Source: Lingula anatina
Taxonomy: Eukaryota > Animalia > Brachiopoda
Length of the DNA: 18,766 bases
NCBI GenBank assembly: GCA_051362555.1
Contig: CM120644.1
Location: 14,263,268-14,282,033, forward strand
Direction: 5' to 3'
The position numbers and the translations under genes are program-made. The notes under the pieces were generated by a model. It had not been told where the DNA came from. It searched no databases and saw nothing but the letters and a program-made list of their open reading frames with translations. Positions 812 through 18,293 of this stretch are shown here, piece after piece; positions within the stretch are counted from its first letter, which is position 1, and the number at the start of each line of letters is the position of its first letter.

Positions 812-1130
812 GTTATAAAAGAATCCAAACTCGGATAGTTTAAGTTTAGATGTATTCATAGAAATCTAGGGACAAAATACTTACTGTTCAAATATAAAAT
901 AGTTGATAATCCGCATTGCAATTTATGTAGCACAATGATGGAAACAATTGAACATCTATTCGTAGATTGTGATCTCGCAAAAAAAAACTTGTGGAAGCAA
1001 ATCGAAAAGTGGTTTAGGGATGAAAAGGTTGTCAATATTCATATTTCTGCATCGGATATTATTCTTGGAAACAATGACGAGAAATTGAATTTTATTAATT
1101 TCCCAGGTAAAATAATACAATTACACTAAA
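812..1130 (+). pseudogene. Decayed 3' fragment of an L1/Tx1-like non-LTR retrotransposon ORF2 (zf-RVT CCHC region)
   Basis: The frame reads IKESKLG*FKFRCIHRNLGTKYLLFKYKIVDNPHCNLCSTMMETIEHLFVDC...LWKQIEKW. The CxxC...ETxEHLFxxC motif is typical of the RT-associated zinc finger; there is an in-frame stop at 836. Confidence 0.8.
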
Positions 1131-1721
1131 TCAAAAAAAAGGGGGACATCTGTCCTTTAGGGACATCGAATGCTATCTGTGTTAGAAAAAATATGCTGTG
1201 CTTATCAAAATATCTTATTTATAAATGAAAATGATGAGCCATCAGTAGTAGTTATGTGTGTATGTATGTATGTGTGAGAGAGAGAAGTAAGCGAGGGGTA
1301 ACAAAGAAGTATTGTATACTGTAATTTACATTTCTTAAGTTCAATAATAAAAAAGAATGAATATTGAATGTGTGCAACATGGAGACGGAAAGACATATAT
1401 TAAAATGAAAAATAAATTAAAATGGCTTTCTAGCCTTCCAGGGATAAGTTTAAGGTCTTTCTTAGCATATGATACCTAAAAAAAATAATATGTGTAAGCT
1501 TGAATGTGGGTGCCATATGCAATGAATCCATTGATAATTTAAATATGTTTTTAATTATTAACAGATTTCAGTGCAGTTTCTCTGTTTAAGGTTATATAGA
1601 TGAACAAGATTTAACTGTCATAGCCGCGTACTATATGAAGGTATTGTTGAAACTCTCCCACACCTGTTGAATTGTGTTTTACTCAAATGTTGAATTATAC
1701 TCCTTTTTCACCAGGGGTATA

Positions 1722-1754
1722 CAGTTTTGTGCAGAGAAAGTGACATTACGGATA
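1722..1754 (+). repeat. Left terminal inverted repeat (33 bp)
   Basis: 33/33 match to the reverse complement of 17525-17557; preceded by TA. Confidence 0.96.
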
Positions 1755-1780: not shown

Positions 1781-1900
1781 TCTTACGTAGACTTACGTAC
1801 GCCCCTTAGGAGGAGAAAAGAATTGTGTGAAAATCCGTAACCTAAAGGACAATGCCGACTTACGTACATCTTACTCACATCTTACGTACATCTTACACAC
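1781..1900 (+). repeat. Subterminal short repeats (consensus ATCTTACGTAC), six copies; one inverted copy at 17498-17508
   Basis: CTTACGTAG 1782, CTTACGTAC 1792, 1859 and 1881, CTTACTCAC 1870, CTTACACAC 1892; GTACGTAAGAT near the right TIR. Confidence 0.8.
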
Positions 1901-2161
1901 ATGCAGCGATGAGTAAGAAGGGGTGGGTTTATGTAAATAGGGTGACGGCGGGGTGTTTCTCGCCTTGCGGCATCACAACCATGTGTGAAAAGAGGCGTGA
2001 TATATGATCCCACCTAATTATGGGTCTTTAAATCGTCCTCTGGTACGCTGCGGCGCGACCCAAACATGACTTTGACCAGGTTAGAATGTGAAGTTTAAGA
2101 ATTTACATTGATTTTTTTATTTCTTGTACATGATACGTCTGTCAACGAGTCGGTGTGTCGC

Positions 2162-2197: not shown

Positions 2198-3336
2198 GTG
2201 CAGGTCCAATTTCCCGCTCACTGTGATGCAACCCAGGCGTAACTTTGATTTAAGTTAGTGCTTTTACAAAAGTGGGACTAACTTTATGATTATGGCCATT
2301 CAACTGTATAACATGAGAACAAATATTTAGCCAAAAGAAAGTCAAATAACGCTTTCGTGTAAAAAAAAACGTGCTTGTCATCCTGGCTGTGAAGTTACGC
2401 CTTTTTATTTAAAGGGAGTGGGTGTATCCAGGCTGAAACAGACTCTCCTGTCTCAATGATCAAATGCCATTTAATTCGCAATGTGCGGATTTCTGAGGGC
2501 ACATTCTTAAGATTAGGTACAATGCCGACTTATGCACATAACACGAACATCTTATTCAGGTAAAGCGACGACAGGAGGGGCTGTGGTTATGCAAAGCGTG
2601 AAATGAGGCGTGATATACTTTAGTTCGATTGATTGTGGGCCAATAAAATAAAAAAGGTAATGTACCCTGCTCCGCTGTGACGAGGCCAATACTGTGCACT
2701 TTTTAGCTATCCGTTTAAGTACATGTCTCCTTGATCAAAACAAATTCAATACAGTGAAGAATAGAAAAGGCATTAAATTGACAAACACAAGTACCCTGTA
2801 CGATGTTCGAAATTTGGCCGATGAAGGCCGCTTTTATTGTGAATCCCTCTAATAAAGGAAGTAATTTTAGAGGCTAAAATTGAATAATTGTGACAGTGCC
2901 TAATTACGTAACTTTTACGTCTAAAAAAACTTTATTTTATATATAATTCCCAAACAACAGTGCAGACGTTCTAATTTGTGGGGTTGCAAAGAGGCCGAGA
3001 AGAAAAACTCCGAACAACGACCGGACGAAGCACCTCGGTGGAGTTTGAAATAAAGGATAAGCTAATTAGCAAATTGGTGGACGGCAGATAAGCTGCGGCG
3101 TGCTACCCAACCCTACTCCCTTTTTGAGGGAGGGGGGGGTACACTCTTTTCCTTACGATAAACAGGCCTTACAGCGAGGAGTAGAGCTCTCCATTCTGCC
3201 ATCCCTAGTTAGAGAAATTTAGATGTTGAAGAAATTTCAAATGTGCCCGCCCGGTCTTTTATGAATTAGATCGGCCAATACTTACCTAACTGATTTCCTG
3301 AAATAAAAGGTATTAATTAGGTAATCACAAATAACT

Positions 3337-3477
3337 GGTCCGCATGTCTTGCTAGACCGAAAAAGTAACACAATGGAATGAATGATAAACAAAAAAATGG
3401 GTAGAAGGAGAGAATCTGCATGTCTTGCTAGATCTCTGGGAAGATAGGAAATATGAGGTCCGCATGTCTTGCTGGAC
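3337..3477 (-). repeat. Three copies of an AGCAAGACATGC(A/G)GA motif downstream of the BEN stop codon
   Basis: Plus-strand GGTCCGCATGTCTTGCTAGAC (3337), GAGAGAATCTGCATGTCTTGCTAGATCTC (3408) and ATGAGGTCCGCATGTCTTGCTGGAC (3453). Confidence 0.9.
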
Positions 3478-3494
3478 TTCAAAAATACACTTTA

Positions 3495-4877
3495 CTAATT
3501 TTGGTTGCCCGCTCTTAAATTTCTATTTGCAGTGTTCATGGCAGAAACCATTTTTGCCCAAAAGTTCTTGTTTAGTCTCTGTTGCTCCGGATAGTAACGT
3601 CCAACAGCATTTCTTATATATTGAATTCTGTTCCTGTCCAACGGACTCCTAATGTCTCCCCCTCTCTTTGATCCTTCCACATTCTTTGTGGGGTCCGTTC
3701 TCTCCTCCCTGCTGAAGAGCTGCCCCATTAGCTTCACGCAAAAATTGGTCGCCCCCGTAGAATTTTGTTTTAGGATAAGGAGCTCGTTCTCAGTGGGGAA
3801 TAACGTACGGGTCTGGGGAGGGTGGCCTTGAGAACGAGCCGGGGCAGGGGCAGGGGCAGGGGCAGGGACTGGGTATGGGTAGTGTGGAGGGAAAGGGAAG
3901 GGGGCATGGGGGTGTGCTCCTTGTATGTCAAAAAATGGGGGCTGGGGATATGCAGGGAAAGGTGGTGGGCTAGGAAAAGCAGGGGGAGGTGGGGGAGATG
4001 GGAGGGGGCTGTCTAAATTCAAACGGGATACAGGGGGCGGTGTCCCATAGTCGGTGGCTGCGGAAGGGGGGATCAGTCTGGTGGTGGTGGCAGGAGGGGT
4101 CGGTCTGGCGGTGGATGTGGTAGAGGGGGTCGGTCTGGAGGTGGAGGTGGTGGCCTGGAGAGACGGTCTAGTGGCGGTGGCGGCGGCAGGGGGGGGTGGT
4201 CTGGTGGCGGGGAAGATGGCAGGAGGGTTTGATCTGGTGGATGTGGTGGCAGGGGGGGTCGGTCTGGCGGTGGATGTGGTGGCAGGGGGGGTCGATTTGG
4301 CGGTGGATGTGGTGGCAGGGGGGGTCGGCCTGGAGGTGGATGTGGTGGCAGGGGGGGTCGGTCTGGCGGTGGATGTGGTGGCAGGGGGGGTTGGTCTGGC
4401 GGTGGATGTGGTGGCAGGGGGGGTCGGTCTGGCGGTGGATGTGGTGGCAGGGGGGGTCGGCCTGGAGGTGGATGTGGTGGCAGGGGGGGTCGATTTGGCG
4501 GTGGATGTGGTGGCAGGGGGGGTTGGTCTGGCGGTGGATGTGGTGGCAAGGGGGGTTGGTCTGGCGGTGGATGTGGTGGCAGGGGGGGTTGGTCTGGCGG
4601 TGGATGTTGTGGCAGGGGGTGGTGGTCTGGAGATGGAGGTGGTGGCAGGGGGGGTGCTGGGGGTGGAGGTGGTGGCAGGGGGGCTGCTGGGGGTGGTAGG
4701 GGGGGCTCCCAAAATTTGGTGAAGCAACTCTTCATGTCGCAGGAGTTTCTCGAATATCTTATCAATGGAATCTTGAAGTTTCACCAGAGCCGGTCTGCAC
4801 TCACACCGCAGAGGTGGGGGAAGCTGGGGTGTATTGTCATGTCCACCGGCTGGGCCAGATGAAATGCGAGTTGCCTG
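3495..4877 (-). CDS. Terminal exon of the BEN-domain gene (coiled coil, Pro/Thr repeats, BEN domain at about 3510-3790)
   Basis: Long open frame in the ORF track, entered through a TTTGCAG/CAG (NAGNAG) acceptor at 4880-4875; stop TAA at 3497-3495. Confidence 0.88.
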   Translation of the reverse strand, partial: QATRISSGPAGGHDNTPQLPPPLRCECRPALVKLQDSIDKIFEKLLRHEELLHQILGAPPTTPSSPPATTSTPSTPPATTSISRPPPPATTSTARPTPPATTSTARPTPLATTSTARPTPPATTSTAKSTPPATTSTSRPTPPATTSTARPTPPATTSTARPTPPATTSTARPTPPATTSTSRPTPPATTSTAKSTPPATTSTARPTPPATTSTRSNPPAIFPATRPPPPAAATATRPSLQATTSTSRPTPSTTSTARPTPPATTTRLIPPSAATDYGTPPPVSRLNLDSPLPSPPPPPAFPSPPPFPAYPQPPFFDIQGAHPHAPFPFPPHYPYPVPAPAPAPAPARSQGHPPQTRTLFPTENELLILKQNSTGATNFCVKLMGQLFSREERTDPTKNVEGSKRGGDIRSPLDRNRIQYIRNAVGRYYPEQQRLNKNFWAKMVSAMNTANRNLRAGNQN

Positions 4878-5343
4878 CTGCAAATTAGAAACATTTATTT
4901 AATGTTTTTTATTTGAACTCGTTTTTAAATATGGACATGGAAACAAAACTGCAGCTATGACGCAACCCCATTTGTCGTTTCATGTTCAAGGACACATTTT
5001 TACCTCAATACTGAATTAATCTCGACATTTTTAATCATACCCTCCGTTACTTATAAATATTTCAAGCTGGTGTCATAGACTCGTTGTTCTTGTGTAAGAT
5101 TCTCTTTAGTACTCACCTTTCGGCCCACTGCCTTCTTTTTAGTTTTTTGTTTCTTTGGTGGTCTTTCCCCCTCTTCTTCACCAGTTTGATCCTGAAAGAA
5201 CCCAAGCCGTAAACAGCAGTATTATTATTATTATTATTATTATTATCATTATTATTATTATTATACAGAACGAGAAAAAGTGAACAACTGCAATTGTGCA
5301 GCCTCTTAGGTAAAAATCACATATAATATATACTTGTATATAC

Positions 5344-5377
<34 letters not shown>

Positions 5378-8300
5378 GAAATCAAATTAGACGGCCCTCA
5401 CCTGTCGTCTCACTTGCTTCTTTCGCCTCACTTCCTTCGTCACCTCCGTCTCCGCCCTCACCTCCTCCTCGTCAGTTTGATTCTGAAAAACGACAATTAA
5501 ATAAATAAATGAACAAATGAATTTGTCTCTCTTTCCGTTTTATGTATGTACGAAGACAGTTCGCTAAATTAAACTTGAAAAAATAACGAATTAACTGTGA
5601 TGGGCATTAGAATGTTTTCAGTTGTCGTGTATAGCTTTTCAATAAGCTGACCATTTCTTTCTTTTTCTTTTCTATTTTGCTGTGGTAAATTGATGTCGTG
5701 TGCACGATTTTTGTCAGTGCACGGTGCTCACCTGCTCTTCCTCCACCTCCCCTTCCTCCTCCTCTGAGCTTCCAGAACTGTCAGTTTCATTGGCATAAAA
5801 CCTTTCCATTGCCATGTGTTCTGACACGGAATCTGAAAGAGGACAAAAAGAACATGGCTGGTTGTAAGTCAGGCACGTCGGCGGGTGGGGGAGGCGTTCG
5901 TCTGGTAAATTTGATAATGGTACAAAAAGGTTTCATGATGAAGGGTCCGCTTTTCAGAAAAAGAACCTTACTTTGAAATTGCTGAGAAATGTCAACGTGT
6001 GCATACGGGACAACTCGTGAAGCGACGTACAATATGAAATTAACATGTTATTCGTACAGTTTTTGGGCATCATGAACCCTTGTTAATTTCTTTAATTATT
6101 TATATTGATAGTTATCGTGGTATGGTTTTCTTGTCAGTGAGTCAGCACGCAGTACAGACTAATGGTGACTTACTTGTTGTGTGAAGAACCATTCCTTCGA
6201 CCTCCCCCAGATCCTTCCACTGGACCCTTACTCGTACACCCTGTACGATTTTCTCATCGGCCGTCAGTTCGATCGTCTTCAGGCCGGACACTGTATTATC
6301 CTGCCATCGAACGACAGCGAAGGTATCTGGAAAGAATTAAGGGTATGCGAGATTAGAAAAACATACTCATAAATGATTATAAATTTAACTCTAACTTGGC
6401 AAAATATGATTGTGTTCCGGTATTCTACAGACGCATCGCCCAATATTATAAGCGACTAACGAAAATGAATCTAGTGATGCTAAATGTAAATGGGATTGGG
6501 GGGGGGGGGGGGGGGGGTCCGCGGATGCGAAGTGTTTTAGAGGGCGAGTAACAGTAAATGTATGCAACTTTTTGTGTCGATAAAATTACATAATTTTTAT
6601 TTCCTTTTTTTCTATAATTTTTTTATCAAACCATTCTCAAAATCAATACCAACAGAGACTACCAGGATGCCCAGTCAATCCTTAGGCCTACCCTCGCCAG
6701 CAGTTATGCACGCGATTCTTAGTTATGTACGGCATTTTTTTCAAACAACTTGTTTTTCTAGCTCCGCTGACTTTAATATTGCCAAAGAAGGAAAAAATAT
6801 ATATAAAATTGAAACCAAAAATAATTTGTTTTTTTTCACCGACGTCCGACTGATCATACTCTTCAATCGGAATAACATAAACGCGAAAACTCCTAGTAAG
6901 TTTAACGGCACTCTCACGTCACATGACTGCCTACAAGTTAAACGAAGGCCATTTGTACCAAGGTAAACGCTTGGTTCATTTCCTCGAGCTTCCGGTTTTT
7001 AAGCCAATCAGTACTTCGTTGATATTTTACATTACACGTACGACTACATGTGGTATTAATGCAAAATGGCGGGAAAGTGTGCTGGAGTAGCCGTCTTGAC
7101 TTAAGCAGGAATTTCACCTCTGTTGTGTGGCTCACTTTATAGTGAAGGAGGGACCAAAATTATTATGCAAAATGGTCTGTCCGACCAGTGTTACAGATGT
7201 TTTAGGCAATTTTACTCACTGCTTTCTGTCGGAAATGAACATCAACTGCACAACTTGCGTCACGTGTGGAGTGTTTCAAAGGGGGAACAGCAGAGTAAAG
7301 AGCACAAAGCATGTTTGTTTATTATTATTTTGTAATTTACAAGAATGATTCGTAGAATTGACATTTATTTTGACAAATAAAATAATAAAAAGAAATTGCT
7401 GTTTTTGTTTCTCTGTTTTAGTTCTTACTATTGTCTAATGTTAAAAGTCATGATTTTGAAAAATGTCTTTCATTTTTCACCCCCTCCGACCTCCAAAAAA
7501 ATATTGTTTAACAAACAATAAATTAAATAAAAACTGCCCAACACTCGCTGTATAGTGTGGGTGATGTATTGTCACCATTGCATGGCTGTTGCTCACTAGT
7601 TTTTTCTGAATCTGGAAGCATGTGCCACCAGATTCGCCTGATGGACATGCCACCAGACTGGCGATCTTGTGAGAAGCAGCGCTTTATATAGGTTTGGGAC
7701 TGACCTTTGACCTGATGTACAATGTAACTCTCATTGGGTAGTGCGAATGACGCAATGTCTAGAAAGCATTGCATGGTGTCTGGTGAGTGGATTGTAACTA
7801 AGTCTTCTTGCTTTCCTTTTTTTTTTCATGTGACGGAATATGTACCCCCAGAAAATGTTGAAGAGCATATGGATCACTTATACATTTACAGGTATACTAT
7901 GTCCTCGCTTTTATGTAACTTAGCGACTGCACTGAGGATAATTTGTTGATTGGTGGTTATTATCGCTAGAACTTAGAAGTATTTAAACAAGAATCAGTTT
8001 TAACATCAACTTGAATTTTAAGTGTTCCTCTCGAGTTAACGCTGTTGCTTGACTACTCCCACAGGCTTTAAGTGTGAATTTCACTGTAACAGTACCTTTG
8101 TTAAACGCAAAAATTACAGGCCGTTCATAATTGGGGGGGGGGGATGGGGGGGGGGGAGCAACCTTCCGCATGCAATTTGTTAATTGATACAGTCATGCAT
8201 ATTTGATTTTATTGCTTTTACTTATGCAATATGTTTAATTAGTATATTATTTATCTTTGTTTTTTTACACCAATTAACATAAGTTTAAAAAATGTTTTAC

Positions 8301-10923
8301 ACATTTTCTTTTGACAGCCTGTTGACATTGTCCTGCCATCTCAGGGAAGACGCAGTAGTGGACGTTCTGGCGAACCTTTATTAGACTTAGAGTCACCTTG
8401 GGGCAGTCCCCCATAACAATTGTGCTTCTTGGGCTTGGCAATCTCATTCAGTTTTGTAGGAGAGGATGATTTGCACCAGTGGATTGACAAGTATTGACAA
8501 TCGACATTTCAGTCACACTAAACTACTGGCATGTTGTACCACACTTATTCTAAGATTGCTGAATTATCATTACTGTCTTAGGAGACCCTAGATCTCTCAA
8601 CCAGAAGAAGAGATACAGCTGTAAATTAGTTATAAGAGAAAACAACCCACTGTTGTGTATTTGGAAAAGATAACCTTGATTAGGCTTGATATTGGAGCTT
8701 GGGCTTGGAGATTCATAACTTGCTTTCACTCCTTTGAAAAGTAACTGCTTTGTTCTTTGTTCCTTTACTGTTGATAATATGATAATAAACACTCCTCTTG
8801 TCATTGTATGTTGCTGACTCTGTTTTAATTATCTTTTAAGAAAGAGAATATAGATATCAAGATTTCACATGTAGGCCTATTTACAAAGCCTTTGAATCAT
8901 TTGAACGCTAAAAGAATGGTTGAGAAATGCAATATATTAACTAGATTATGACATTAGGATGTGATGCAAATACAGTCCAGACAAGGGGCAAAGGAAGTCA
9001 GTACATGTATGGTGTACAGTACCGGACACTAAAGAGGTGTTAATAGTAATCCGTAATTATGCCGTTTCTGTAGCACATCCCACCCTCCTCGATGTTATCT
9101 TGCTAACTACATGTAGACAATAGGCGATCCTATTTAGCGAAGTTTAATTTTATGACTCGTGTTATTTTTATCCGTATAAACAACGAATGACTGTTGAACA
9201 GTTCAAGAATTTTTCAGTATTTTTCCTGCTATTACTGAGAAGAAAAAACAAAATTGTGAATCGAGTTAACAAGAAACCACGGCCGAATCCCGGGGTTAAG
9301 GGACGCGGAAGCAAAGCCGACCCCCCCCCCCCCCCACTCCCTACTGGGCGTTGGGTAAAAAAAAAAAAAGGGCGAACGGTGCCATTTGGTACGGTTAAGA
9401 ACTATGATTCAGCTAGTCTTAATTCCAACAACAGGGGACCAGAAATCTGAATGTCCGACCAAGCAAGTGTAAACATGTCGGTGTGGGACGATTTGGGGTT
9501 ATGCTTAGGCCTATATACCGTACAAATGTACAAGTTAACTTTGTAACTTTTGGTGTTTATAAAATAACATTATTCTTTATACTTACTTCACTTACTAATA
9601 CTTATATTATTTATCAAACTTTTCCTAATATCAAAACGGCAGAAACTACAATGATGTCCATTTACCCTCGCCTGCAGTTCTAAACGCGATTTTTCATTTA
9701 AAAATTGTGTAACGTCATTGAACAGTGCAAATGATGCAATGTCACCTGTGCATGGTAGGTAGTTACTGGATTATACTGAGTCTGTTGGTCCAGACAACAG
9801 ACTCGCCTGTTGGGCTGGACCAACAGACTGGCGAAAAAAGTTAATCCACCGCCTTTTATAGACCCCGGGTTCAAGTGTCCATGAACTTGGCCCATTGTGA
9901 GGCTCTTAATATCGGTGTTGTTTACTTTTCATTTTTAACCAGGAAGCAAAGATTGACTTCACGTTTTTTTTCTGTCTACCTTTATTTGAAGGAATATTTA
10001 ACCTTAGAAAATGTTGAAACGCAAATGGAGTGCTTATACATTTACAGGTATACTATGTTTAGGCCTATATATTTCTGCACATAATTTGTTAATTGGTGGT
10101 TATTATCACTAGGGAATCTCCAAACATGAATCAGTTTAAATTCCTATCAAGCTGAATTAAATTGAAAGTGTTTCTTTCAAGTTAACGCTGTCCCTGGTTC
10201 ATATCTTGTTCTGCTCCTTGACTACTGTCAGAGGCTTAAGGCGTGAATATCACTGTAACACTACCTTTGTTTAACGCACAATTACAGCACAGACATTATC
10301 GGTGGTTGGCTTATGGTGTACAATAGCCTACTAAAGAGGTGTTAATAGTAATCCGTAATTATGCCGTTTCTGTAGCACATCCCACCCTTCTCAATTTTAG
10401 TTTGCTATCTAGTCGATACCCTAAATACTTAGAGAAGTCTAACTTTATGAGTTTTTTTTACCGGTATAAGCAACGTCCGATCATGTGTAATGAACTTACA
10501 GATCACACCAGCAGCATAACAGTGTAAATTTTAACGGAACCTTATTTCTGTAATGTTTGAGTTAATTGGTGGTGGGCAGAGTCTTTTTATTCAATGATGA
10601 TGATAATAACTGTAGAAGTAGTGCTACTTTTAGTCGCACAAAAGCACATTCCTTAATTCTGTGATCTATTTTAGGATTAAGTTCTCGTATGTAAGCCAGA
10701 GCTGTGTTAAGTTATAAGAATGATGTGATTTTTTTCTTCAGGCAACAGCTAATATTGAGAAGATGTCCTGATAGACATCGTAATATTGGAGGTAAAACCT
10801 ATATCAAATATAAGCTGTTGTCTGAAGAAAAAAAATCACATCATTCTTAGGTTCTCGTATAGACCTATTTATTAACTGTACTACCGTTTACTTACCAACT
10901 TTGGACAGCTGGCGAGCAGACAT
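3495..10923 (-). CDS. BEN-domain protein (transposon cargo); predicted exons 10923-10896, 6326-6174, 5832-5732, 5482-5402, 5191-5117, 4877-3495 (about 606 aa)
   Basis: GT-AG exons join in frame: MSARQLSKVD/TFAVVRWQDNTVSG...VRVRVQWKDLGEVEGMVLHTTN/SVSEH...SSEEEEGEVEEEQ/NQTDEEEV...RRKKQVRRQ/DQTGEEEGERPPKKQKTKKKAVGRK/QATR... The C terminus (NFCVKLMGQLFSREE...NVEG...PLDRNRIQYIRNAV...FWAKMVSAMNTANR) fits the BEN-domain pattern. Exons 2-6 are well supported; exon 1 (ATG 10923, GTAAGT donor, matching phase 1) is less certain. Confidence 0.75.
4080..4680 (-). repeat. Coding 33-bp minisatellite (11-aa unit ARPTPPATTST), about 11 well-conserved copies at about 4240-4620 plus degenerate flanking copies
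   Basis: Plus-strand unit GGTCTGGCGGTGGATGTGGTGGCAGGGGGGGTC repeated head to tail with no spacers. Confidence 0.95.
5220..5264. repeat. (TAT)n microsatellite, intronic
   Basis: Directly visible. Confidence 0.95.
5347..5376. repeat. (TA)15 microsatellite, intronic
   Basis: Directly visible. Confidence 0.95.
7609..7659 (-). ncRNA. Candidate 51-nt hairpin RNA, copy A
   Basis: AGTCTGGTGGCATGTCCATCAG-GCGAAT-CTGGTGGCACATGCTTCCAGATT folds by hand into an approximately 22-bp stem (G-U pairs allowed, one mismatch, one bulge) starting at the predicted +1. Confidence 0.45.
7656..7690 (-). promoter_or_regulatory. Core promoter TATATAAA ... GATCGCCAGTC (hairpin unit A)
   Basis: Minus strand reads TATATAAAGCGCTGCTTCTCACAAGATCGCCAGTC; the predicted +1 A is at 7659, 31 nt from the first T. 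Confidence 0.6.
9779..9829 (-). ncRNA. Candidate 51-nt hairpin RNA, copy B
   Basis: AGTCTGTTGGTCCAG-CC-CAACAG-GCGAGT-CTGTTG-T-CTGGACCAACAGACT: a perfect 15-bp stem plus a 6-bp stem, starting at the predicted +1. Confidence 0.5.
9826..9860 (-). promoter_or_regulatory. Core promoter TATAAAA ... TCGCCAGTC (hairpin unit B)
   Basis: Minus strand reads TATAAAAGGCGGTGGATTAACTTTTTTCGCCAGTC; the predicted +1 A is at 9829, 31 nt from the first T. Confidence 0.6.
10715..10849. mobile_element. MITE-like palindrome (arms about 36 bp, TA at both ends)
   Basis: TAAGAATGATGTGATTTTTTTCTTCAGGCAACAGCT pairs with AGCTGTTGTCTGAAGAAAAAAAATCACATCATTCTTA. Confidence 0.65.
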
Positions 10924-11139
10924 CTCCGTGCTATAGATTTCCTCTAGGGATGATAAATTCACTAATGTCAGGTGTTGGTCTCGTATCGGCAGTTGCTGAT
11001 GCTGAGAAAGTACACTGTAAGTGTAAGCTAGTCTGTCCATCATCCCCCATTATATAATCTGCCGCAGGGAGCGTGATTGAAATCAAACTTGGCACATCTT
11101 GACAGTTTAAGTCGGACAAAAGATCTTCAGGTGATACTT

Positions 11140-12130
11140 TTAATTAGAGCTGCCATGTAAGCTAACAGTTTAATTAATGCAACGTACAGGTAAATTGAGA
11201 GTACCGATAAGATCAACTTCTTCCTATCTCTCCATCAGCGTATTTCTTCAGACTGCCTTTATTTTCGACCACTGTTTAACAAGGATAATTATCAATAGAA
11301 TAACATTGTATGGAGAAAGGATTTTTTATTCATTATTTTATTCACGAAAGAATAAGCAAACTGCTCGTTTCAGCAGAAAGATGGGAATATAAAACCATTA
11401 AGTTAAAATAAAGTTCTCAGAAAACTGCTTGCTTAAATCATTCCTTCAAGATACACGTGAACTAAATCTAGATTAAATAAGTTGTATGAATAATGTCATA
11501 AAATAATAATTGCTATATGAATATATGCCAGAAATGTCACTAATTGCGATAAATGAAATACATGTATTCTGATATAAATGCGAAAAAAAAAAAAAAAAAA
11601 AAAAAAGAAAAGAAAAAACAAAAGAAACATCCGCCGGCAGTAATAGGTGCTGGTGACAGCCCGTATCGTATGTATAACTTGAAAGAACAAGCTTACATGC
11701 ACCAAACAAAGCACAATTTAAAAAAAAAAATTGTAAAATATTTTTGGTAATGAAAGCCGGCCAGATTCCATGAAAACATTATATAACCATGCTGGCAGAA
11801 AAATGCAATAAAAACAGATTTGCAAGGTCAGCAAGTAGATGTAGTTATCGATAAAGGTTACATCTGACATAAATGAATTGCAGGAAAAAATGATAAAAAT
11901 TTTCACCACAATCAAAATAAGCCGTAAAGCCAAAATATCACATGAGGACAAAATTACAAGTAAATCGTGGCACTTCTTGACATCTTAAGTCGAACAAAAG
12001 ATTTTGGTCACACGTTTAATCAGAGCTTACCTGCATGGTAAGTTAGATTAATAACTCCAACGTACAGGTAGATTGAGATTTTCGATAAGATCACCCTCCC
12101 ATTTCTCCATCTCCGCATTTCTATAGACCG
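11140..12130. repeat. Diverged direct repeat of about 120 bp (about 11140-11255 and 12015-12130) in the intergenic region
   Basis: Both contain TTAAT.AGAGCT...CAACGTACAGGTA.ATTGAGA...CGATAAGATCA.C...TCTCCATC..CG.ATTTCT...AGAC. Confidence 0.8.
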
Positions 12131-12924
12131 TCCGATAAGATCTAAAGGGCCCTGGCACGTAGATTACACGCAATTACTACAATCGTTGATTATCTTCCTT
12201 AAATGCTTGCTTAAGCTCCGATCATACATTCTTTCGAGTCCATGTTCTTAGAAAATCCTTTTAAAATCCTTTCTACAAGCAGCTATAAAATAAAAACGCC
12301 TGTGCATTTTCTGATCGTTGTGCATTTCAAAATTTCCCAAACCAAAAACATATTAATTGGACAATGTTTGAATGTCTGTGACAAAGTGACAACTTAGGGA
12401 CAGAACATCCGAGAAGGCGTTTTGTTTATTGACTTAGATAGTAGGATGACTGGTTTTGTAGTCTATGATCATTGTGTGGATACATATAAATAATTGTGAT
12501 GGTATAATTATTTTGCCTGCAAGTACCTTCAGTTAAGGAAAATCCTAATCCTTAACTATGCTGTATTTCAATGGCTTAATACAAAAGCATTTTTTATGTG
12601 CTCGCTTCCGAACTGTTTTAAAGGTGTGGTTCATAAGTAAGACATTAATGTTACCAAAGATAACAGGTAAATTCAAATGAAGGTCTTCAAACTAATATGT
12701 AGAATCGTTTAATCCAGTTGCCGTTAGGATATTTTCTAACGAAATTGTAATGACGATAAGTGGGCGTTGATATTCGTCAGAAACCAGATGAGATCGGTGA
12801 TAAGAGATGGTGTGATTAGATAATGGGCGCGTGTTAAATGTTTAAGTCGTTTTAAGAATGGCTGTGGTCGCGAGTTTTTCGCTCCTTCATTACTGCTGGT
12901 GAAGCCATGGAACACGAGGTACTG

Positions 12925-12958
12925 TATAAAAACGCGGAAGGCAGCAGGATCGCCAGTC
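12925..12958 (+). promoter_or_regulatory. Transposase core promoter: TATAAAAA plus initiator-like GATCGCCAGTC
   Basis: TATA starts at 12925; the A of CAGT is at 12955 (30 nt later); the ATG in AAGATGC context is at 12976. Confidence 0.7.
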
Positions 12959-12975: not shown

Positions 12976-15128
12976 ATGCCGTTCAACGAGTATGCTCGCC
13001 AGCGCGCCCTGAAGCTGCGAGAGGCTGGACTTGGTATAACAGCCATCAGGAGACAACTACGAGAGGAAGACGTCACCTGTTCACTAAGCTCGATATACAG
13101 GTAAGTGATTGGGACAGATCTTGCCCTTAGTGGAGCTATGTGTATTTACTCCGGTTTTAGCAAATAAAACTATATCATGAGTGACAGTGAATCTCCTGCT
13201 CTCTTCTTCAATCTCTCTTTTTTTCACCAAGGAACTCCAGACTTATAGTTTTTTTATAGAAATAAACGGATTATATGTAGATTTTCCCTTAAACCGCATA
13301 TTTCTTTTTGTACTAGCTCATTTTCTTTTTGGTCAAACGTTTTCTTTTAATACAACGACGCGTTTACAGAGCACTCTATCCCAATATTGTTTATTCTACA
13401 TGTATACATTGAACTGACAGAATTCGTATCTTTTCTAGGTTTTTTGTAAAACACAATGAAGGGTTTGGCCTTGCTGACCGGCCTAAACCAGGGAAACAGA
13501 CAACATTTACAGATGAGCACAGGGCCATCGTTGATGAAGAGATGGAGGCCAACCCTGAGCTCAGATCACATGAGCTTCGGGATATCCTGAGGGAACGTAC
13601 AGGTAATAATTATGTATTGATACCATTAAAATATTACCGTGGCGACCATCGCGCATCAAACGAAGGAAATGTTAGGAAATCTACTCCTCATTGAGCTAAA
13701 CAAGAGAAAGCACTTGGCACATAGTGGTTAACATACACCGTAATTTGTCAAATTGATTTTTTCATACAGTGAAGAAATAATAAATTATTGACTGAATGTT
13801 CATATAAATACCGCTCTTTTTCGTTCGTTTTAACAGGTCTGCTGGTGTCGTCCAGCGCTGTGCGGAGATTCAGGAAGAAGGTTGGCTGGGTGAAAAGTGC
13901 GAAGGGCTACTGCCAGCTTGTTAGAATTGTGAACCGTCCGAAAAGAGTGAACTGGTGCCGCGAGGCCCTGGCAGTAGAGGACAAGTTTGAGGACGTTGTG
14001 TTTTCTGGTAAGCAACAACCCACAGATCTTCATTAAAAAACCAACATGTACATGTATTGTTGTTTAAGATCTATTACCGGGTATTCCGCTCACTTTGTAA
14101 TCTACATGTATATATATTAGCACCGTTGTTAAAAAGGTACACAAAAATTCTTTCTTTTCTTGAATTTGCCTTTTGAGTTTCAAAATGTGTCTTATTTATC
14201 TTATTTGCGCATTCACTTCAGATGAGTGTACCGTGGAGATGGACACGAATGGTCGATACATTTTTCGGAAAGTTATCAGGGATGAAGACGGCAACGACAT
14301 TAGTCCGCCCCGCCCACTGCGCAGCAAACCGAAGCACCCCTACAAGGTCCATGTATGGGCAGGTGAGACGCTACAGTGAAATGTTTAATACTGTTGTGAT
14401 AAAAAGGGGTTATCTTTGCTTGTTGAAATGTAATGAATCAAAATTTAACAAGTGTAATTTAACACTCCGGGTCTGAAAACTAATTAGCCAAGATTGTGAC
14501 TAGGCTTTTAAAATAAAAGTGCATGTTCATGTAAACTAATGGACTGATATTATCTATTTCAGGCATTTCGCAAAGAGGCGCAACTCCCATCGTGACGTTT
14601 ACTGGCGCCATGAACAGCGAGGCTTACCAGGACATTCTTCGGGACACTCTGATTCCGTTTCTTCAAGAAAGGTAAGCGGAAATCAGCAATTAAAATAATT
14701 AAAGAGTCAGTATCGATTTAGAGTATGCATTGCCAATGTTTGTCCATCAGCTGAAAGTTCTGAAAATAGTAACACTTACGTATCTCTTCTGATTTAACCA
14801 CAGGCTTCCTCTGGGGCACAGGTTCCAGCAGGACAATGCGCCCATGCATACCAGCAGGTCGACGGCCACGTTCTTCGAGCAGCACAACATCAACTGGTTT
14901 AAGACGCCCCCCGAGAGCCCTGATCTGAACCCCATCGAGATGCTTTGGGCTGAGCTGAAGTATTTCATCAGGAACCGGGCGAAACCAAGAACGAAAGATC
15001 AACTGGTGGCTGCAATTGAGGAATTCTGGACAACCGTGGATCAGGCTAAGTGTATTAAGTATATAAACCACATTCAGAAAGTAATGCCCGAAGTAATTCG
15101 TGTCGAAGGCAGAGCCACAGGTTATTAA
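12976..15128 (+). CDS. Tc1-like DD34E transposase, 6 coding exons: 12976-13100, 13439-13602, 13837-14007, 14222-14362, 14563-14671, 14804-15128 (1035 nt, 344 aa)
   Basis: All five introns are GT-AG with compatible phases and no internal stop. The spliced protein has an HTH-like N terminus (ALKLREAGLGITAIRRQL...SLSSIYR), a DRPKPGK linker (GRPR-like), a second HTH (SSSAVRR), VVFSDE (first D), KHPYKVHVWAGIS, FQQDNAPMH (second D) and PPESPDLNPIEMLW (E), with 34 residues between the second D and E. Confidence 0.93.
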
Positions 15129-15262
15129 GTTACTGCCGTGTCTGTCCAGGTATTTTTAGGCTTTGACTTTGTAAATATGTACAATATTGTTTATGTGTTA
15201 TTTTTATGTAAATAGCTGTAGATTTTTTATAGATTATTTATATTTATTCTTTCATGTTGAAG

Positions 15263-15470
15263 GCCAGCAAGGCATGCGGCCCTCATTCCCCCCTTTTTTC
15301 CCGGAGATCTAGCAAGACATGCAGATTCTCTCCCACCCATTTCTTTTTATTTTAAAATGTTTTCCTTTCAATTGTCGTTACTTGTTGGGTCCAGCAAGAC
15401 ATGCGGACCTCATACCCACCCCCCCCCCCCCCTCGGAGATCTAGCAAGACATGCAGATTCTCTCCCACCC
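15263..15470 (+). repeat. Four copies (A-B-A-B) of the same AGCAAGACATGC motif downstream of the transposase stop codon
   Basis: CCAGCAAGGCATGCGGCCCTCAT (15264), GGAGATCTAGCAAGACATGCAGATTCTCTCCCACCC (15303 and 15435), GTCCAGCAAGACATGCGGACCTCAT (15389). Confidence 0.9.
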
Positions 15471-15680
15471 GTTTCGAACATCATACTTGTGTTTGTCACT
15501 TTATCGTTTCTTTTTTCGGCATCGTATTGAACTTTTCGATTAAGGAGACATAAAGATTATTTATATTTATTTTCTTTGTATATACTTTACTCTGTATTTA
15601 TTTTTATACACCAACATTGTATATATGTTATGTTTCATTTACATGTAAATATGTTTCGAATCATTATTTTATTTTACATT

Positions 15681-15720
15681 TATTTATATTTATATTTATA
15701 TTTATATTTATATATATTTA
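15681..15720. repeat. (TATATT)n simple repeat
   Basis: Directly visible. Confidence 0.85.
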
Positions 15721-16904
15721 GTGTAGTTTACAGTTTACAGCTTTACAATAAGGGGGACGATTGAATAGATCTACTCTCCTGTCGCGCCATCACCAGATTC
15801 TGTAATGGAAAGCGCTGCTGCATTTTTCGCAGGTTCGACGTCATTTTCATAACAGCATCCGGTGATGGGACGTCATAAGTGCAGATCTGTTCAAACTCTT
15901 TCTTACTGGTTGGGCATGTATAGATAGTGTATATATTTATCATATGTATGAAATTTTTAATTCAAATTTTTAATTTATAGAGCAGCGCTTAATTCCACTT
16001 TTTCGTGGCAGTGCCTTGGCTATTAGACGGACATGTCTCTGGCTTGGCCTGACTACAGGAACGTGAGTGTTGTTTTTAAATATGCAGATATGGGTAATCT
16101 CATAAAATTCCGCACCACCGGTGCATTCGGGGTATTGTGAAATTACCGTGACCCATTAACACTTAATCACCCTCTGCAGTGTGTCAGAAGGCATGTAATA
16201 CAACTGTAAGGTGAACGGCTATCTATTTCGATGTACAGTTTATAATGTTAAATTCTTAATCTGTAACTCTTATTATTAGCATATAGCCGTTTGTGTTATC
16301 AATCAGGCTCTGCAAAGGTTCTGCAACCTGAGGGTTCCTTCTGATCTGTGTTCTAAACCTATTATTGTTCCCCTGCAGTTATGACAAGTTATTTGCACAA
16401 AGAAATCTAACCTATCATTCCGTAATTTGACGTACGAGTCCATGTATTTTATTGTCGTCGTCTTAAAGTCCAATTGAGTAGTCCGCGCAGCTTCATAATT
16501 AAAAAAAAAAAGAATAACGTGTTTGGATAGATAACCCGGTCCCTGTTGTTCCTCATGATCTAAAAATAATGTTAAAAGGTTAGGGCAAAGCCAGGTTAAA
16601 CTGCAATGAATTATATGTTAAAAATTTATAATAGTGTGAGCATTTCAATGTAATAATTTGAGCTGAAATTGACACCTAGGAAAAACGTAAAATACGCCGT
16701 CTTATTTAGGTTATGTTTCCTTTATTTTCAACATTCAGAATCAACAACACATTGGGATTTTAAAATTTACAACACAATTTACAGCAAAAAAATGTAACTA
16801 TGTGCGCAGCAAAAATGCCTGTTGAAACAATTTTAGGAGTGACATTAAATTGTAACCGAGCCTTGAGAACCAAGACATCGTGAAGAAAGAAAATGCTATC
16901 TTAA

Positions 16905-17220
16905 ACCTAGGTTCCAACTACGTTTTTGACGCACGGTTTTTAGGTTCATTGCGTCCGTCTGGGACGTAGCTAAATCGCAGGGAAGGAATCAAGTAAAGCC
17001 TAGGTTGGGCTGCTTTGTGTGGTCTACGGCCAAAAGATGGGAAAACGTGGGAGTTCGTGCGTGAGGAATACGTCCATCGTGCGACTTTTGGAGGACACAA
17101 ACAGCACGTAGGAACTTTTTGACATGATCCAAAGCCGCTACGTGCGATCTTGCTACGTCCTAACCGGACGCAAGGAACCTAAAAACCGTGCGTGAAAAAC
17201 GTAGTTGTGGGGCCTAGGCT
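16905..17220. mobile_element. Nested MITE with about 65-70-bp TIRs, flanked by TTAA (Kolobok- or piggyBac-type target)
   Basis: CCTAGG...CAACTACGTTTTTGACGCACGGTTTTTAGGTTCATTGCGTCCGTCTGGGACGTAGC pairs with GCTACGTCCTAACCGGACGCAAGGAACCTAAAAACCGTGCGTGAAAAACGTAGTTG...CCTAGG; TTAA at 16901-16904 and 17221-17224. Confidence 0.8.
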
Positions 17221-17524
17221 TTAAATACTATCTGAAGGACGAACACGATGAAAGCGTGCCACATATAGATGAACAATGATTGTGTGCAGTCGGGCAGATA
17301 ATCAGATAAACGGCTGGGACTTGGGGGATGACAATTAAAGCTGTCACTCAGCAGCATCAGTAGTGGGAGAGGTGGTAATTAAGGCTGTCACTCATCACCT
17401 CAAACGAGGCAAACTCAACTTATTTCCCTAAACCCAGCTGACTTACTCTAAGCATTGTGTCCTATTGTGTTTACCCTGTAATTATGTGCAATTTGCGGTA
17501 CGTAAGATTAGGGTGGTTTATCCG

Positions 17525-17557
17525 TATCCGTAATGTCACTTTCTCTGCACAAAACTG
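17525..17557 (-). repeat. Right terminal inverted repeat (33 bp)
   Basis: TATCCGTAATGTCACTTTCTCTGCACAAAACTG followed by TA. Confidence 0.96.
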
Positions 17558-18010
17558 TAGTCACTATCCTGGATCTAATAACAAAATAATATAAACCTAT
17601 ATAAACCTGGCAGAAATTATGATAATAACCCGGATCTTTTCAGTGGGGGGAAATTGTGAATTTTACAGATACTTTCATTTTTTAAGTCTTAAATTGCTTA
17701 AAATTAGAACATTCCTTTTAAGTGGTAGAACGTACAAAATTAAAAGCAGGCTACTAAAGGAAAAGCACCACTTTAATGCAATATAGAAATATAATTTTGT
17801 GTTTATAAAATTTTTTATCTGAAAGTTTGATTAATTTTTCCCTTTGAAGTACCATAGAACATTGAAAATAAAAGGTGAAAAAATGGGGGGGGGCATATTT
17901 TGTAAGTATACCATCTATTTCTTTTTTTTTTTATATAAATATTAATTTATCCATTTCCCTGGCTGTTATTATTTGATTTGACCTTTTAAATTTTTTTTTT
18001 TACAGCTGAA

Positions 18011-18259
18011 ATGTGTGGAATTTGGGCAATTTTTGGCAGCGATGACGATGTGTCAAGGCAGTGCAGCAGCTGCCTGAAAATCGCTCATCGTGGTCCTGAT
18101 GCTTTCCGCATTGAAAATGTCAACCACTTCAAGAACTGCTGCCTCGCCTTTCATCGTCTGGCCATCGTGGACGACATTTATGGTATGCAGCCAATGAGGG
18201 TCCACGCTTTACCTCACTTATGGATGATCTATAATGGAGAGATTTATAACTGCAAACTG
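18011..18259 (+). CDS. ASNS: Asparagine synthetase (glutamine-hydrolysing), first coding exon (83 aa); gene continues beyond the window
   Basis: MCGIWAIFG...AHRGPDAFR...FHRLAIVD...GMQPM...YNGEIYN is the Ntn/class II glutamine amidotransferase N terminus of animal ASNS. Acceptor TTTTACAG at 18005 and donor GTGAG at 18260. Confidence 0.96.
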
Positions 18260-18293
18260 GTGAGCTTTTATGTTTCCTGTAATATCTCTGTTG

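What the first reader, a model, noticed from the sequence alone, without database searches (positions are those of the whole stretch)
3495..10923. BEN-domain cargo gene with a regulator-like architecture
Seen: six in-frame exons giving an N-terminal FAVVRW...VRVQW...GMVL module, an acidic tract, basic NLS-like segments (RRKKQVRR, RPPKKQKTKKK), a coiled-coil-like helix (LVKLQDSIDKIFEKLLRHEELLHQIL), a long Pro/Thr linker and a terminal BEN-like domain. Known: BEN domains (BANP, poxvirus E5R, NAC1, Insensitive, BEND3/5) bind DNA and organise or repress chromatin. Inference: the protein regulates the element's promoters, counters host silencing or assists transpososome assembly; such elements could be a source of lineage-specific BEN gene expansions. 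The N-terminal module resembles the BEND5 N terminus from memory only.
Basis: partly seen in the sequence, partly recalled or inferred. Interest (0 to 1): 0.8.

Follow-up and report, generated by a model that had tools for sequence, protein, structure and literature searches.

The report
Giant Tc1 transposon carrying BEN gene
An intact six-exon gene for a BEN-type DNA-binding protein sits back to back with an intact transposase gene between the matching ends of an unusually large (15.8 kb) Tc1-type jumping gene, likely of a lamp shell, and it likely serves as the element's own regulator, a two-gene design I did not find described for this transposon family.

Summary
Six GT-AG exons on the minus strand give an open 606-aa frame. 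Its last ~100 aa pass Pfam's BEN cut-off, and the paralog's model matches BEND3/BANP structures. A named Lingula anatina protein (XP_013418091.1) has the same build and supports the 4.57-kb first intron: exon 1 matches 8 of 9 residues. The gene lies head to head with an intact five-intron DD34E transposase, inside one pair of TA-flanked CAGT terminal repeats, 35/35 identical. New here: the transposase's TATA-plus-TCGCCAGTC core promoter recurs twice on the BEN strand. Both genes' stop codons are followed by arrays of one hairpin with compensatory changes. Reads show the same terminal repeat with a third flank. Not shown: spliced reads, a second full two-gene copy (no genome held), the paralogs' context, or any binding. 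The N-terminal module is only weakly Tudor-like. Verdict: genuine, probably co-adapted cargo of a Tc1 element; regulatory role inferred.

The parts
1720..1721 (.). Left TA target dinucleotide
   Evidence: sequence
1722..1754 (+). Left terminal inverted repeat, starts CAGT, 33 nt perfect (39 of 44 to 1765)
   Evidence: only two TIR-like sites with under 6 of 21 mismatches in the window
1782..1902 (+). Four CTTACGTA motifs near the left end; one mirrored copy near the right end (17506, minus); candidate protein-binding sites
   Evidence: role inferred
2723..2803 (+). Outer left inner arm, 74% like 15551-15474
3337..3482 (-). Three hairpin units (core GCAAGACATGC) starting 13 nt after the BEN stop; 79% like 15409-15257
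3495..4877 (-). BEN gene exon 6: coiled-coil helix, Pro/Thr linker (33-nt tandem unit at 4084-4683), BEN domain (about 3510-3790), stop
5117..5191 (-). BEN gene exon 5 (acidic then basic, NLS-like); tandem duplicate of exon 4
   Evidence: 0 of 300 shuffles reach the exon 4/5 score
5402..5482 (-). BEN gene exon 4 (acidic then basic)
5732..5832 (-). BEN gene exon 3 (end of N module, acidic tract)
6174..6326 (-). BEN gene exon 2 (beta-rich N module, weakly Tudor-like)
7597..7690 (-). TATA + TCGCCAGTC core promoter copy A and a possible alternative phase-1 first exon 7648-7597
   Evidence: use inferred
9826..9860 (-). TATA + TCGCCAGTC core promoter copy B, part of an old tandem duplication inside intron 1
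10896..10923 (-). BEN gene coding exon 1 (9 codons plus 1 nt; donor GTAAGT)
12925..12958 (+). Transposase core promoter, TATA + TCGCCAGTC
   Evidence: use inferred
12976..15128 (+). Tc1-type transposase, six exons (12976-13100, 13439-13602, 13837-14007, 14222-14362, 14563-14671, 14804-15128), 346 aa, D154 D247 E282 (DD34E)
15257..15465 (+). Four hairpin units starting 129 nt after the transposase stop
15474..15551 (+). Outer right inner arm
17525..17557 (-). Right terminal inverted repeat, followed by TA (17558-17559)

Best explanation
The gene is an intact second gene of a 15.8-kb Tc1-type (DD34E) cut-and-paste transposon, and its product is predicted to be a nuclear, oligomeric DNA-binding protein that likely regulates the element's own expression in chromatin. 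Shown: the exon structure, the BEN domain, the enclosure by one TA-flanked TIR pair, an intact transposase back to back with it, the same core-promoter signature on both strands, and the same hairpin array after both stops. Inferred: (1) the two genes are expressed together from divergent promoters and controlled alike through the 3' hairpins; (2) basic tracts take the protein to the nucleus; (3) the coiled coil oligomerises it, as shown for human BANP (PMC11472053, passages read); (4) the BEN recognition helix binds a short motif repeated in the element, candidates being the CATG core of the arrays, the CTTACGTA motifs near the ends, or the promoter region; (5) the weakly Tudor-like N module and acidic tract contact chromatin, keeping the large, intron-rich element transcribable or damping it. 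A Tc1 transposase carries its own end-binding HTH domains (established knowledge), so control of expression is likelier than an obligatory part in cutting.
For: TIRs 35/35 including TA and no other TIR copy in the window. No inverted-repeat pair that would mark a separate nested BEN-only element (best E 0.077). Transposase is open and collinear with 67 of 68 full-length homologs, median 43% identity, DD34E. Promoter pattern occurs 3 times, 0 expected, 0 of 200 shuffles. Hairpin motif occurs 7 times, 0.09 expected, all directly after the two stops; 42 of 42 cells pair and 3 of 7 pairs change on both sides. Introns 2-5 (210-341 nt) and GC3 (0.58) resemble the transposase's (132-338 nt, 0.59). 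The paralog is 51/97 identical in BEN, yet ten consecutive residues of the recognition helix are identical, and the helix differs in the other BEN relatives. No near-identical longer protein was found that could be a recent host parent (weak). 24-25 reads in run X6 carry the right-type end with a third flank, so the family has another insertion. In X6, exon 6 depth is 5.1/3.6/3.2 on the expected strand vs 0.6/0/0, and the transposase is sense-biased in 4 of 5 bins. Two Lingula relatives lie on different scaffolds; they are 97% alike in the N module and one is broken.
Against: Only one full two-gene copy was seen: no genome is held, and collection scans found no relative. No splice joint among the 15 of 101 shown. 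Exon 6 is covered throughout in only 1 of 4 runs, at low depth, and intron 1 is covered as deeply, mostly by reads from other copies, so depth does not prove mature mRNA. The empty-site test was negative, and TA flanks cannot prove that the two ends moved together. The second insertion shows an end, not the cargo. The paralogs' context is unknown. The hairpins fold as well or better on the opposite strand in 5 of 7 cases, the seven copies are related, and the structure was read from them. The promoter-like copies on the BEN strand lie downstream of exon 1, inside intron 1, not in front of it. The N module is unfolded in my model (pLDDT under 50), and all Atlas structure matches are under that tool's bar. 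No binding or regulatory data exist.
Confidence: 0.55

Rival explanations
1. End-bridging helper: the BEN protein binds the mirrored inner arrays (CATG core) as DNA and, through its coiled coil, pulls the two arms together so that a 15.8-kb element can be excised, much as TnpA does for En/Spm (TnpA role recalled).
For: The arrays are mirror images on the two arms. Human NACC1/2 BEN domains bind CATG/ACATGT (PMC11472053 and PMC8887127, passages). Earlier unchecked notes report BEN genes with end arrays in CMC elements. The element is about ten times the size of a simple relative (L004, 1.3 kb).
Against: The arrays lie 1.6 and 2.1 kb from the true ends and hug the stop codons. The flanking stems change in complementary pairs, which fits a folded strand better than a plain DNA site. 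The domain is closer to BEND3 and BANP than to NACC1, and BEN domains bind very different motifs (PMC8887127).
Confidence: 0.2
2. Passenger: a host or CMC-derived BEN gene was captured once, or two ends of related elements happen to bracket a BEN gene and a transposase. The gene has no role for the element.
For: One copy seen. The empty-site test was negative. An expressed paralog exists whose context is unknown and could be a host gene (77 reads in X7 match its start). 67 of 68 transposase relatives are single-ORF proteins, and no second Tc1-BEN pair was found.
Against: The frame is open over 606 codons with 5 canonical introns at about 52-59% identity to the nearest paralog. The promoter signature and 3' hairpins are shared, and the arms have drifted about 20% apart while keeping their pairing. 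No near-identical parent was found.
Confidence: 0.17
3. Domesticated unit: the element is fixed next to the asparagine synthetase gene, and the BEN gene now serves the host as a transcription factor.
For: Both genes have many introns, as in the supposedly domesticated TLEWI genes (10.1101/656579, parts 1-2 read). Nested insertions suggest age.
Against: Perfect TIRs and TA on both sides, an intact DD34E triad, another insertion of the same end, and CpG o/e 0.78 inside vs 0.54-0.55 in the flanks.
Confidence: 0.08

Closest known systems
Tc1-family (IS630-Tc1-mariner) DD34E transposons
   Same: TA target, CAGT-starting TIRs, about 340-aa HTH + DDE_3 transposase with DD34E; typical features as stated in 10.1101/656579 (parts 1-2 read) and seen in L004.
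   Different: 15.8 kb instead of 1-3 kb; five introns, where the 68 full-length relatives compared are 320-360-aa proteins that look like single-ORF calls (their DNA was not seen); a second, divergent protein gene; shared 3' hairpin arrays.
TLEWI (Tc1-like elements with introns, bivalves; 10.1101/656579, parts 1-2 of 4 read)
   Same: Spliced Tc1-like transposase in 3-6 exons, elements up to 11.5 kb, lophotrochozoan host.
   Different: TLEWI are DD36E with YQDNDSKH and mostly lack TIRs and TSDs; no second gene is mentioned in the parts read. This element is DD34E with perfect TIRs.
BEN-solo and coiled-coil-BEN factors (BANP, BEND3 BD4, BEND5/6, Insensitive)
   Same: BEN fold and profile; coiled coil upstream of BEN as in BANP (PMC11472053 passages); the Arg matching BEND3 R810 is kept (read from alignments).
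   Different: Encoded inside a transposon; extra beta-rich N module and 300-aa Pro/Thr linker; only 14-26% identity to solved BEN domains, so the target motif cannot be inferred.
Two-gene CMC/EnSpm elements with Tudor-BEN partner genes (earlier unchecked notes of this scan) and plant En/Spm TnpA (recalled)
   Same: Head-to-head transposase and BEN gene; N-module, coiled coil, BEN order; mirrored motif arrays.
   Different: The transposase here is Tc1 type, a different superfamily, with TA/CAGT ends. The arrays sit at the genes' 3' ends and fold as hairpins.
Other multi-gene IS630-Tc1-mariner elements: ciliate TBE1/Tec and bivalve/coral L31 with a second ORF (all recalled; one search found no L31 paper)
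   Same: Precedent that this superfamily can carry extra genes.
   Different: To my recall their extra genes are not BEN proteins; not checked in any text.

Membership tests
BEN domain (PF10523) | Profile score above the Pfam gathering threshold | tested here: met
   26.8-31 bits vs 23.2. The paralog alone scores 18.7, below the cut-off.
BEN domain (PF10523) | Five-helix BEN fold with C-terminal recognition helix | tested here: met
   Paralog model with alignment A2: BEN blocks at pLDDT 87-98; the top Foldseek rows down to rank 25 are all BEN structures, best E 1.8e-4. The window's own domain folded alone was low confidence (52.1). A profile of 14 relatives hits BEND3 at E 1.6e-15.
BEN domain (PF10523) | Sequence-specific DNA binding | not testable with these tools
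   Needs EMSA, SELEX or DAP-seq; BEND3 BD1 shows that not every BEN binds DNA (PMC8887127 passage).
BEND5-like / Tudor-BEN proteins | N-terminal Tudor-like barrel homologous to the BEND5 N terminus | tested here: inconclusive
   No Pfam or PDB sequence hit; unfolded in my model. Atlas model of the paralog matches unnamed eukaryote clusters at TM 0.65-0.73, one with 24% BEN members, and Tudor-bearing clusters at TM 0.52-0.60, all under the bar. No BEND5 sequence was available to compare.
Tc1 (DD34E) transposons | DDE triad with 34-residue spacer | tested here: met
   D154, D247, E282; DDE_3 50.9 bits vs cut-off 28.6.
Tc1 (DD34E) transposons | TIRs flanked by TA | tested here: met
   35/35 including TA.
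Tc1 (DD34E) transposons | N-terminal paired-like HTH DNA-binding region | tested here: inconclusive
   HTH_32 at E 4e-4 on exon 2 alone, below the cut-off; the N terminus aligns with relatives that carry PF13565.
Tc1 (DD34E) transposons | Placement in the Tc1 clade of a reference tree | not tested
Tc1 (DD34E) transposons | Multiple dispersed copies or an empty site | tested here: inconclusive
   One other flank for the right-type end in reads; no genome; empty-site hairpin test negative.
TLEWI | DD36E signature and lack of TIRs | tested here: not met
   DD34E and perfect TIRs.
CMC/EnSpm BEN-carrying element nested in the Tc1 | Its own pair of inverted ends with a 2-3-nt target duplication around the BEN gene only | tested here: not met
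   Best inverted match E 0.077; exact 10-mers are AT-rich chance hits. Both arrays enclose the transposase too.

The most novel reading that the evidence does not exclude
A lineage of giant, intron-rich Tc1 transposons has evolved into a two-gene unit. Transposase and BEN protein share one core promoter type and one 3'-UTR RNA hairpin that co-regulates both mRNAs, and the BEN protein runs the element's own chromatin control. BEN proteins would then have been recruited as transposon helpers in at least two unrelated superfamilies (Tc1 here, CMC in earlier notes), making DNA transposons a general source of lineage-specific BEN transcription factors, and the hairpin would be an undescribed RNA element.
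Probability: 0.35. Interest if true: 0.82.

Novelty: new variant of a known kind. Interest (0 to 1): 0.68.

Why it matters
Tc1/mariner elements are the textbook one-gene, 1-3-kb transposons and the source of gene-transfer tools whose efficiency falls with size (recalled). A natural 15.8-kb member with an intact helper gene would show how such an element copes with size or silencing, and gives a direct test: with and without the BEN protein. It also bears on where the scattered, lineage-specific BEN genes of animals come from. If the cargo is only a one-off passenger, the case is a curiosity.

Tried and rejected
No genome was held, so no copy count, empty site or dN/dS. Run search: no RNA holder listed; 9 same-species raw RNA runs were offered, of which 4 were laid and 5 were not. 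The joint table was swamped by poly-G artefacts. Word-based search for longer BEN relatives: 0 of 257 candidates. Metagenome scan with BEN: 0 of 536 stretches; with the transposase: 9 loci, all 1.0-2.8 kb, too short to show a partner gene. TIR pattern in prokaryote genome contigs: 0. Single-sequence fold of the BEN domain was low confidence and not searched. Atlas features search on exon 2: nothing at 0.9 or above. Empty-site hairpin: rejected; 745 of 2000 and 174 of 2000 random joins fold as well. Nested BEN-only element: rejected. Exon 3 as a duplicate of exon 4 or 5: weak or none (5 and 143 of 300 shuffles). Rfam: 9 matches up to E 5, none at gathering score and none on the hairpin arrays. 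Folding the whole arrays is not better than shuffles (z -1.2 and -0.95), though single units are (z -1.9 to -3.8). p53 site, iron-responsive element and Helitron end were considered by eye from recalled consensus and dropped. No complex prediction was run. Three papers asked for by id were not held, among them the original BEN-domain description, so its remarks on transposons are unseen. No supplements were read; those of 10.1101/656579 are closed and may list element sizes or extra ORFs.


Full report
1. The observation. The minus strand carries six exons: 10923-10896, 6326-6174, 5832-5732, 5482-5402, 5191-5117 and 4877-3495. All five introns are GT...AG with pyrimidine-rich acceptors, and the joined frame is open for 606 codons. 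The order is: N module (about 1-73), acidic and basic tracts (74-146), a helix at about 168-202, a Pro/Thr linker built on a 33-nt unit with 18.5 copies, and a terminal domain. That domain scores 26.8-31 bits on Pfam BEN against a cut-off of 23.2. Its only PDB sequence hits are four BEND3 chains, at weak E-values of 0.14-0.34. A profile of it with 13 relatives hits BEND3 at E 1.6e-15, and BANP and Insensitive at about 2e-4.

2. A full-length paralog checks the gene model. A complete HMMER search gave 24 proteins at E up to 0.001. The best, P0214, is XP_013418091.1 of Lingula anatina, automatically named 'proteoglycan 4'. It has the same build end to end: exon 1 8/9, exon 2 28/51, coiled-coil region 12/35, BEN 51/97 identical. 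A second Lingula record, XP_013392152.1, on a scaffold of different length, is 97% like P0214 in the N module but lacks exon 1 and the BEN domain. In run X7, 77 reads align from exactly position 10923. Their loose end and three letter changes, translated by eye, spell the start of P0214. So the host is likely Lingula anatina or a close relative (inference), and the paralog is transcribed. Folding P0214 with an alignment gave a confident BEN domain, one long helix at 156-184 and an unfolded N module. Foldseek returned only BEN structures down to rank 25. The Atlas's own model of residues 6-85 resembles unnamed eukaryote proteins (TM 0.65-0.73, one cluster with 24% BEN members) and Tudor-bearing proteins (TM 0.52-0.60), all under the tool's bar. 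'Tudor-like' is therefore a lead, and BEND5 likeness is untested.

3. The surroundings. The gene lies back to back (2053 nt between start codons) with a six-exon, 346-aa transposase gene. The spliced product is collinear with 67 of 68 full-length relatives (the 68 of 120 listed hits that are 320-360 aa long), at a median 43% identity, and has D154, D247, E282, i.e. DD34E. Both genes are enclosed by one pair of inverted repeats, 1720-1754 and 17559-17525, identical at 35 of 35 bases including TA, each starting CAGT. No further close TIR copy lies in the window, and no inverted pair brackets the BEN gene alone. The unit is 15,836 bp. A distant relative from a metagenome is an ordinary 1.3-kb element with the same TA-CAGT ends (L004). 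Outside lie a zf-RVT LINE scrap on the left and an asparagine-synthetase-like exon on the right (gene name from my knowledge of the sequence type).

4. Signs that the two genes belong together. (a) A TATA box followed by TCGCCAGTC occurs three times, against none in 200 shuffles: in front of the transposase, and twice on the BEN strand inside an old duplication in intron 1. The copy at 7690 is followed by an ATG and a phase-1 donor that would join exon 2 in frame; it may be an alternative start. Neither copy lies in front of exon 1, which weakens this point. (b) A 15-nt motif occurs seven times (0.09 expected): three copies from 13 nt after the BEN stop and four from 129 nt after the transposase stop, each in the same sense as its gene. 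The two arms are 79% alike, with a further 74% arm outside them. All 7 units fold to the same shape: lower stem, bulged A, three pairs, five-base loop. In six distinct units 42 of 42 cells pair and three of seven pairs change on both sides; 1 of 500 shuffles reaches the covariation score. Caveats: the copies are related, the structure was read from them, the other strand folds as well or better in 5 of 7, and whole arrays do not beat shuffles. In poly(A) run X1, 19 reads from a related copy cover one unit in the sense direction, with four listed changes that all spare the paired core. Rfam has no match there. (c) Short-intron sizes and GC3 are alike in both genes.

5. Mobility and expression. 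In run X6, 24-25 reads carry the terminal repeat with a right-type continuation (28 of 30 letters like the window's, compared by eye) and a flank unlike either flank here, so the family has at least one other insertion. This shows an end, not the cargo. X6 covers exon 6 at depth 5.1, 3.6 and 3.2 in the direction expected for BEN mRNA in a standard stranded library, against 0.6, 0 and 0. The transposase is sense-biased in 4 of 5 bins, and the strand bias flips near 12340. The other three runs show little or nothing over exon 6. Against: intron 1 is covered as deeply, mostly by reads that all carry other letters, so they come from other copies or alleles. None of the 15 of 101 joints shown is a splice joint, so splicing of this copy is neither shown nor excluded. 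An empty-site test was negative.

6. How it most likely works. The transposase looks able to cut and paste on its own (intact triad and HTH region; established for Tc1). The BEN protein has the build of a nuclear regulator: basic tracts, a coiled coil of the kind that oligomerises BANP (PMC11472053, passages), and a recognition helix whose last ten core residues are identical in a paralog only about half identical elsewhere, and different in the other relatives. I infer that both genes are expressed together and that the BEN protein binds repeated sites in its own element to control its promoters or chromatin (0.55). The rival is bridging of the two arms through the CATG-containing arrays (0.2). 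NACC1/2 BEN domains bind CATG (PMC11472053 and PMC8887127, passages; PMC7764960, search listing only), but the arrays hug the stops and covary like folded RNA. A passenger (0.17) or a domesticated unit (0.08) remain possible, because only one full copy was seen.

7. Comparison and novelty. It is a BEN protein by profile and fold, and a Tc1-type element by triad and ends. It is not a TLEWI, which are DD36E and mostly lack TIRs (10.1101/656579, parts 1-2 of 4 read). Searches for Tc1 + transposon + BEN domain (3 papers), BEN + transposase, BEN + TIR (2 papers on Tn3), BEN + BEND5 + Tudor, Tc1 + second ORF, BEN + transposable element + invertebrate, Lingula + Tc1 and L31 (0) listed no description of a BEN-carrying Tc1 element; most were judged from listings alone. 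Term look-ups in PMC11601247, PMC12062965, PMC12730594 and PMC10027918 added nothing. The library lacks most subscription papers and Repbase. Earlier unchecked notes of this scan describe the same head-to-head BEN design in CMC/EnSpm elements, and none holds both 'Tc1' and 'BEN'. The BEN-helper idea is thus not new to the scan, but its occurrence with a Tc1 transposase, and the shared promoter and 3' hairpins, are.

8. Verdict. Real gene, real BEN domain, inside a real and apparently intact giant Tc1 element; probably co-adapted cargo; function inferred. Interest 0.68; new variant of a known kind.

Noticed in passing
window 3337-3482 (-) and 15257-15465 (+): Seven copies of a bulged-A hairpin with compensatory stem changes directly after both stop codons; no Rfam match; possibly an undescribed 3'-UTR RNA element.
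   Followed up: yes
window 7656-7690 (-), 9826-9860 (-), 12925-12958 (+): The same TATA + TCGCCAGTC core promoter occurs three times. The two minus-strand copies sit in an old tandem duplication in intron 1 (6563-9185 vs 9542-10475, 68-78% in patches); the one at 9830 is followed by a 51-nt palindrome (9779-9829).
   Followed up: partly
window 5117-5191 and 5402-5482: Exons 4 and 5 are a tandem exon duplication including splice sites; the paralog has a shorter acidic/basic region.
   Followed up: yes
window 12976-15128: The transposase has five introns, while its closest full-length relatives in the collection look like single-ORF genes; this suggests lineage-specific intron gain. It also has an 8-residue insertion between the first two catalytic aspartates.
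   Followed up: partly
window 6960-7100 (+): Cluster of promoter-like words (ETS-like, CCAAT, YY1-like; labels recalled) in intron 1, with many reads from other copies.
   Followed up: no
window 10715-10849: 135-nt palindromic MITE-like insert just inside intron 1, present in reads of all four runs.
   Followed up: no
window 16901-17224: MITE-like insert with 82-nt, 85% inverted arms inside the right arm of the element.
   Followed up: no
window 11090-11253 and 11968-12128: 76% direct repeat in the spacer between the two genes; a good minus-strand donor at 12030 may mark a non-coding 5' exon of the BEN gene, matching the strand flip near 12340 in run X6.
   Followed up: partly
window 18008-18260 (+): First coding exon of an asparagine-synthetase-like host gene about 450 nt from the right end, preceded by a splice acceptor, so the element may lie in its 5' intron or promoter.
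   Followed up: no
window 839-1129 (+): zf-RVT fragment of a LINE 3' end in the left flank (Pfam 35.3 bits).
   Followed up: no
P0219, P0228 (Lingula XP_013379275.1, XP_013379283.1): Two further Lingula proteins with a related BEN domain behind zinc-finger-like regions, which points to a brachiopod BEN expansion.
   Followed up: no
window 15128-16000 (+): No canonical or common variant poly(A) signal after the transposase stop.
   Followed up: partly
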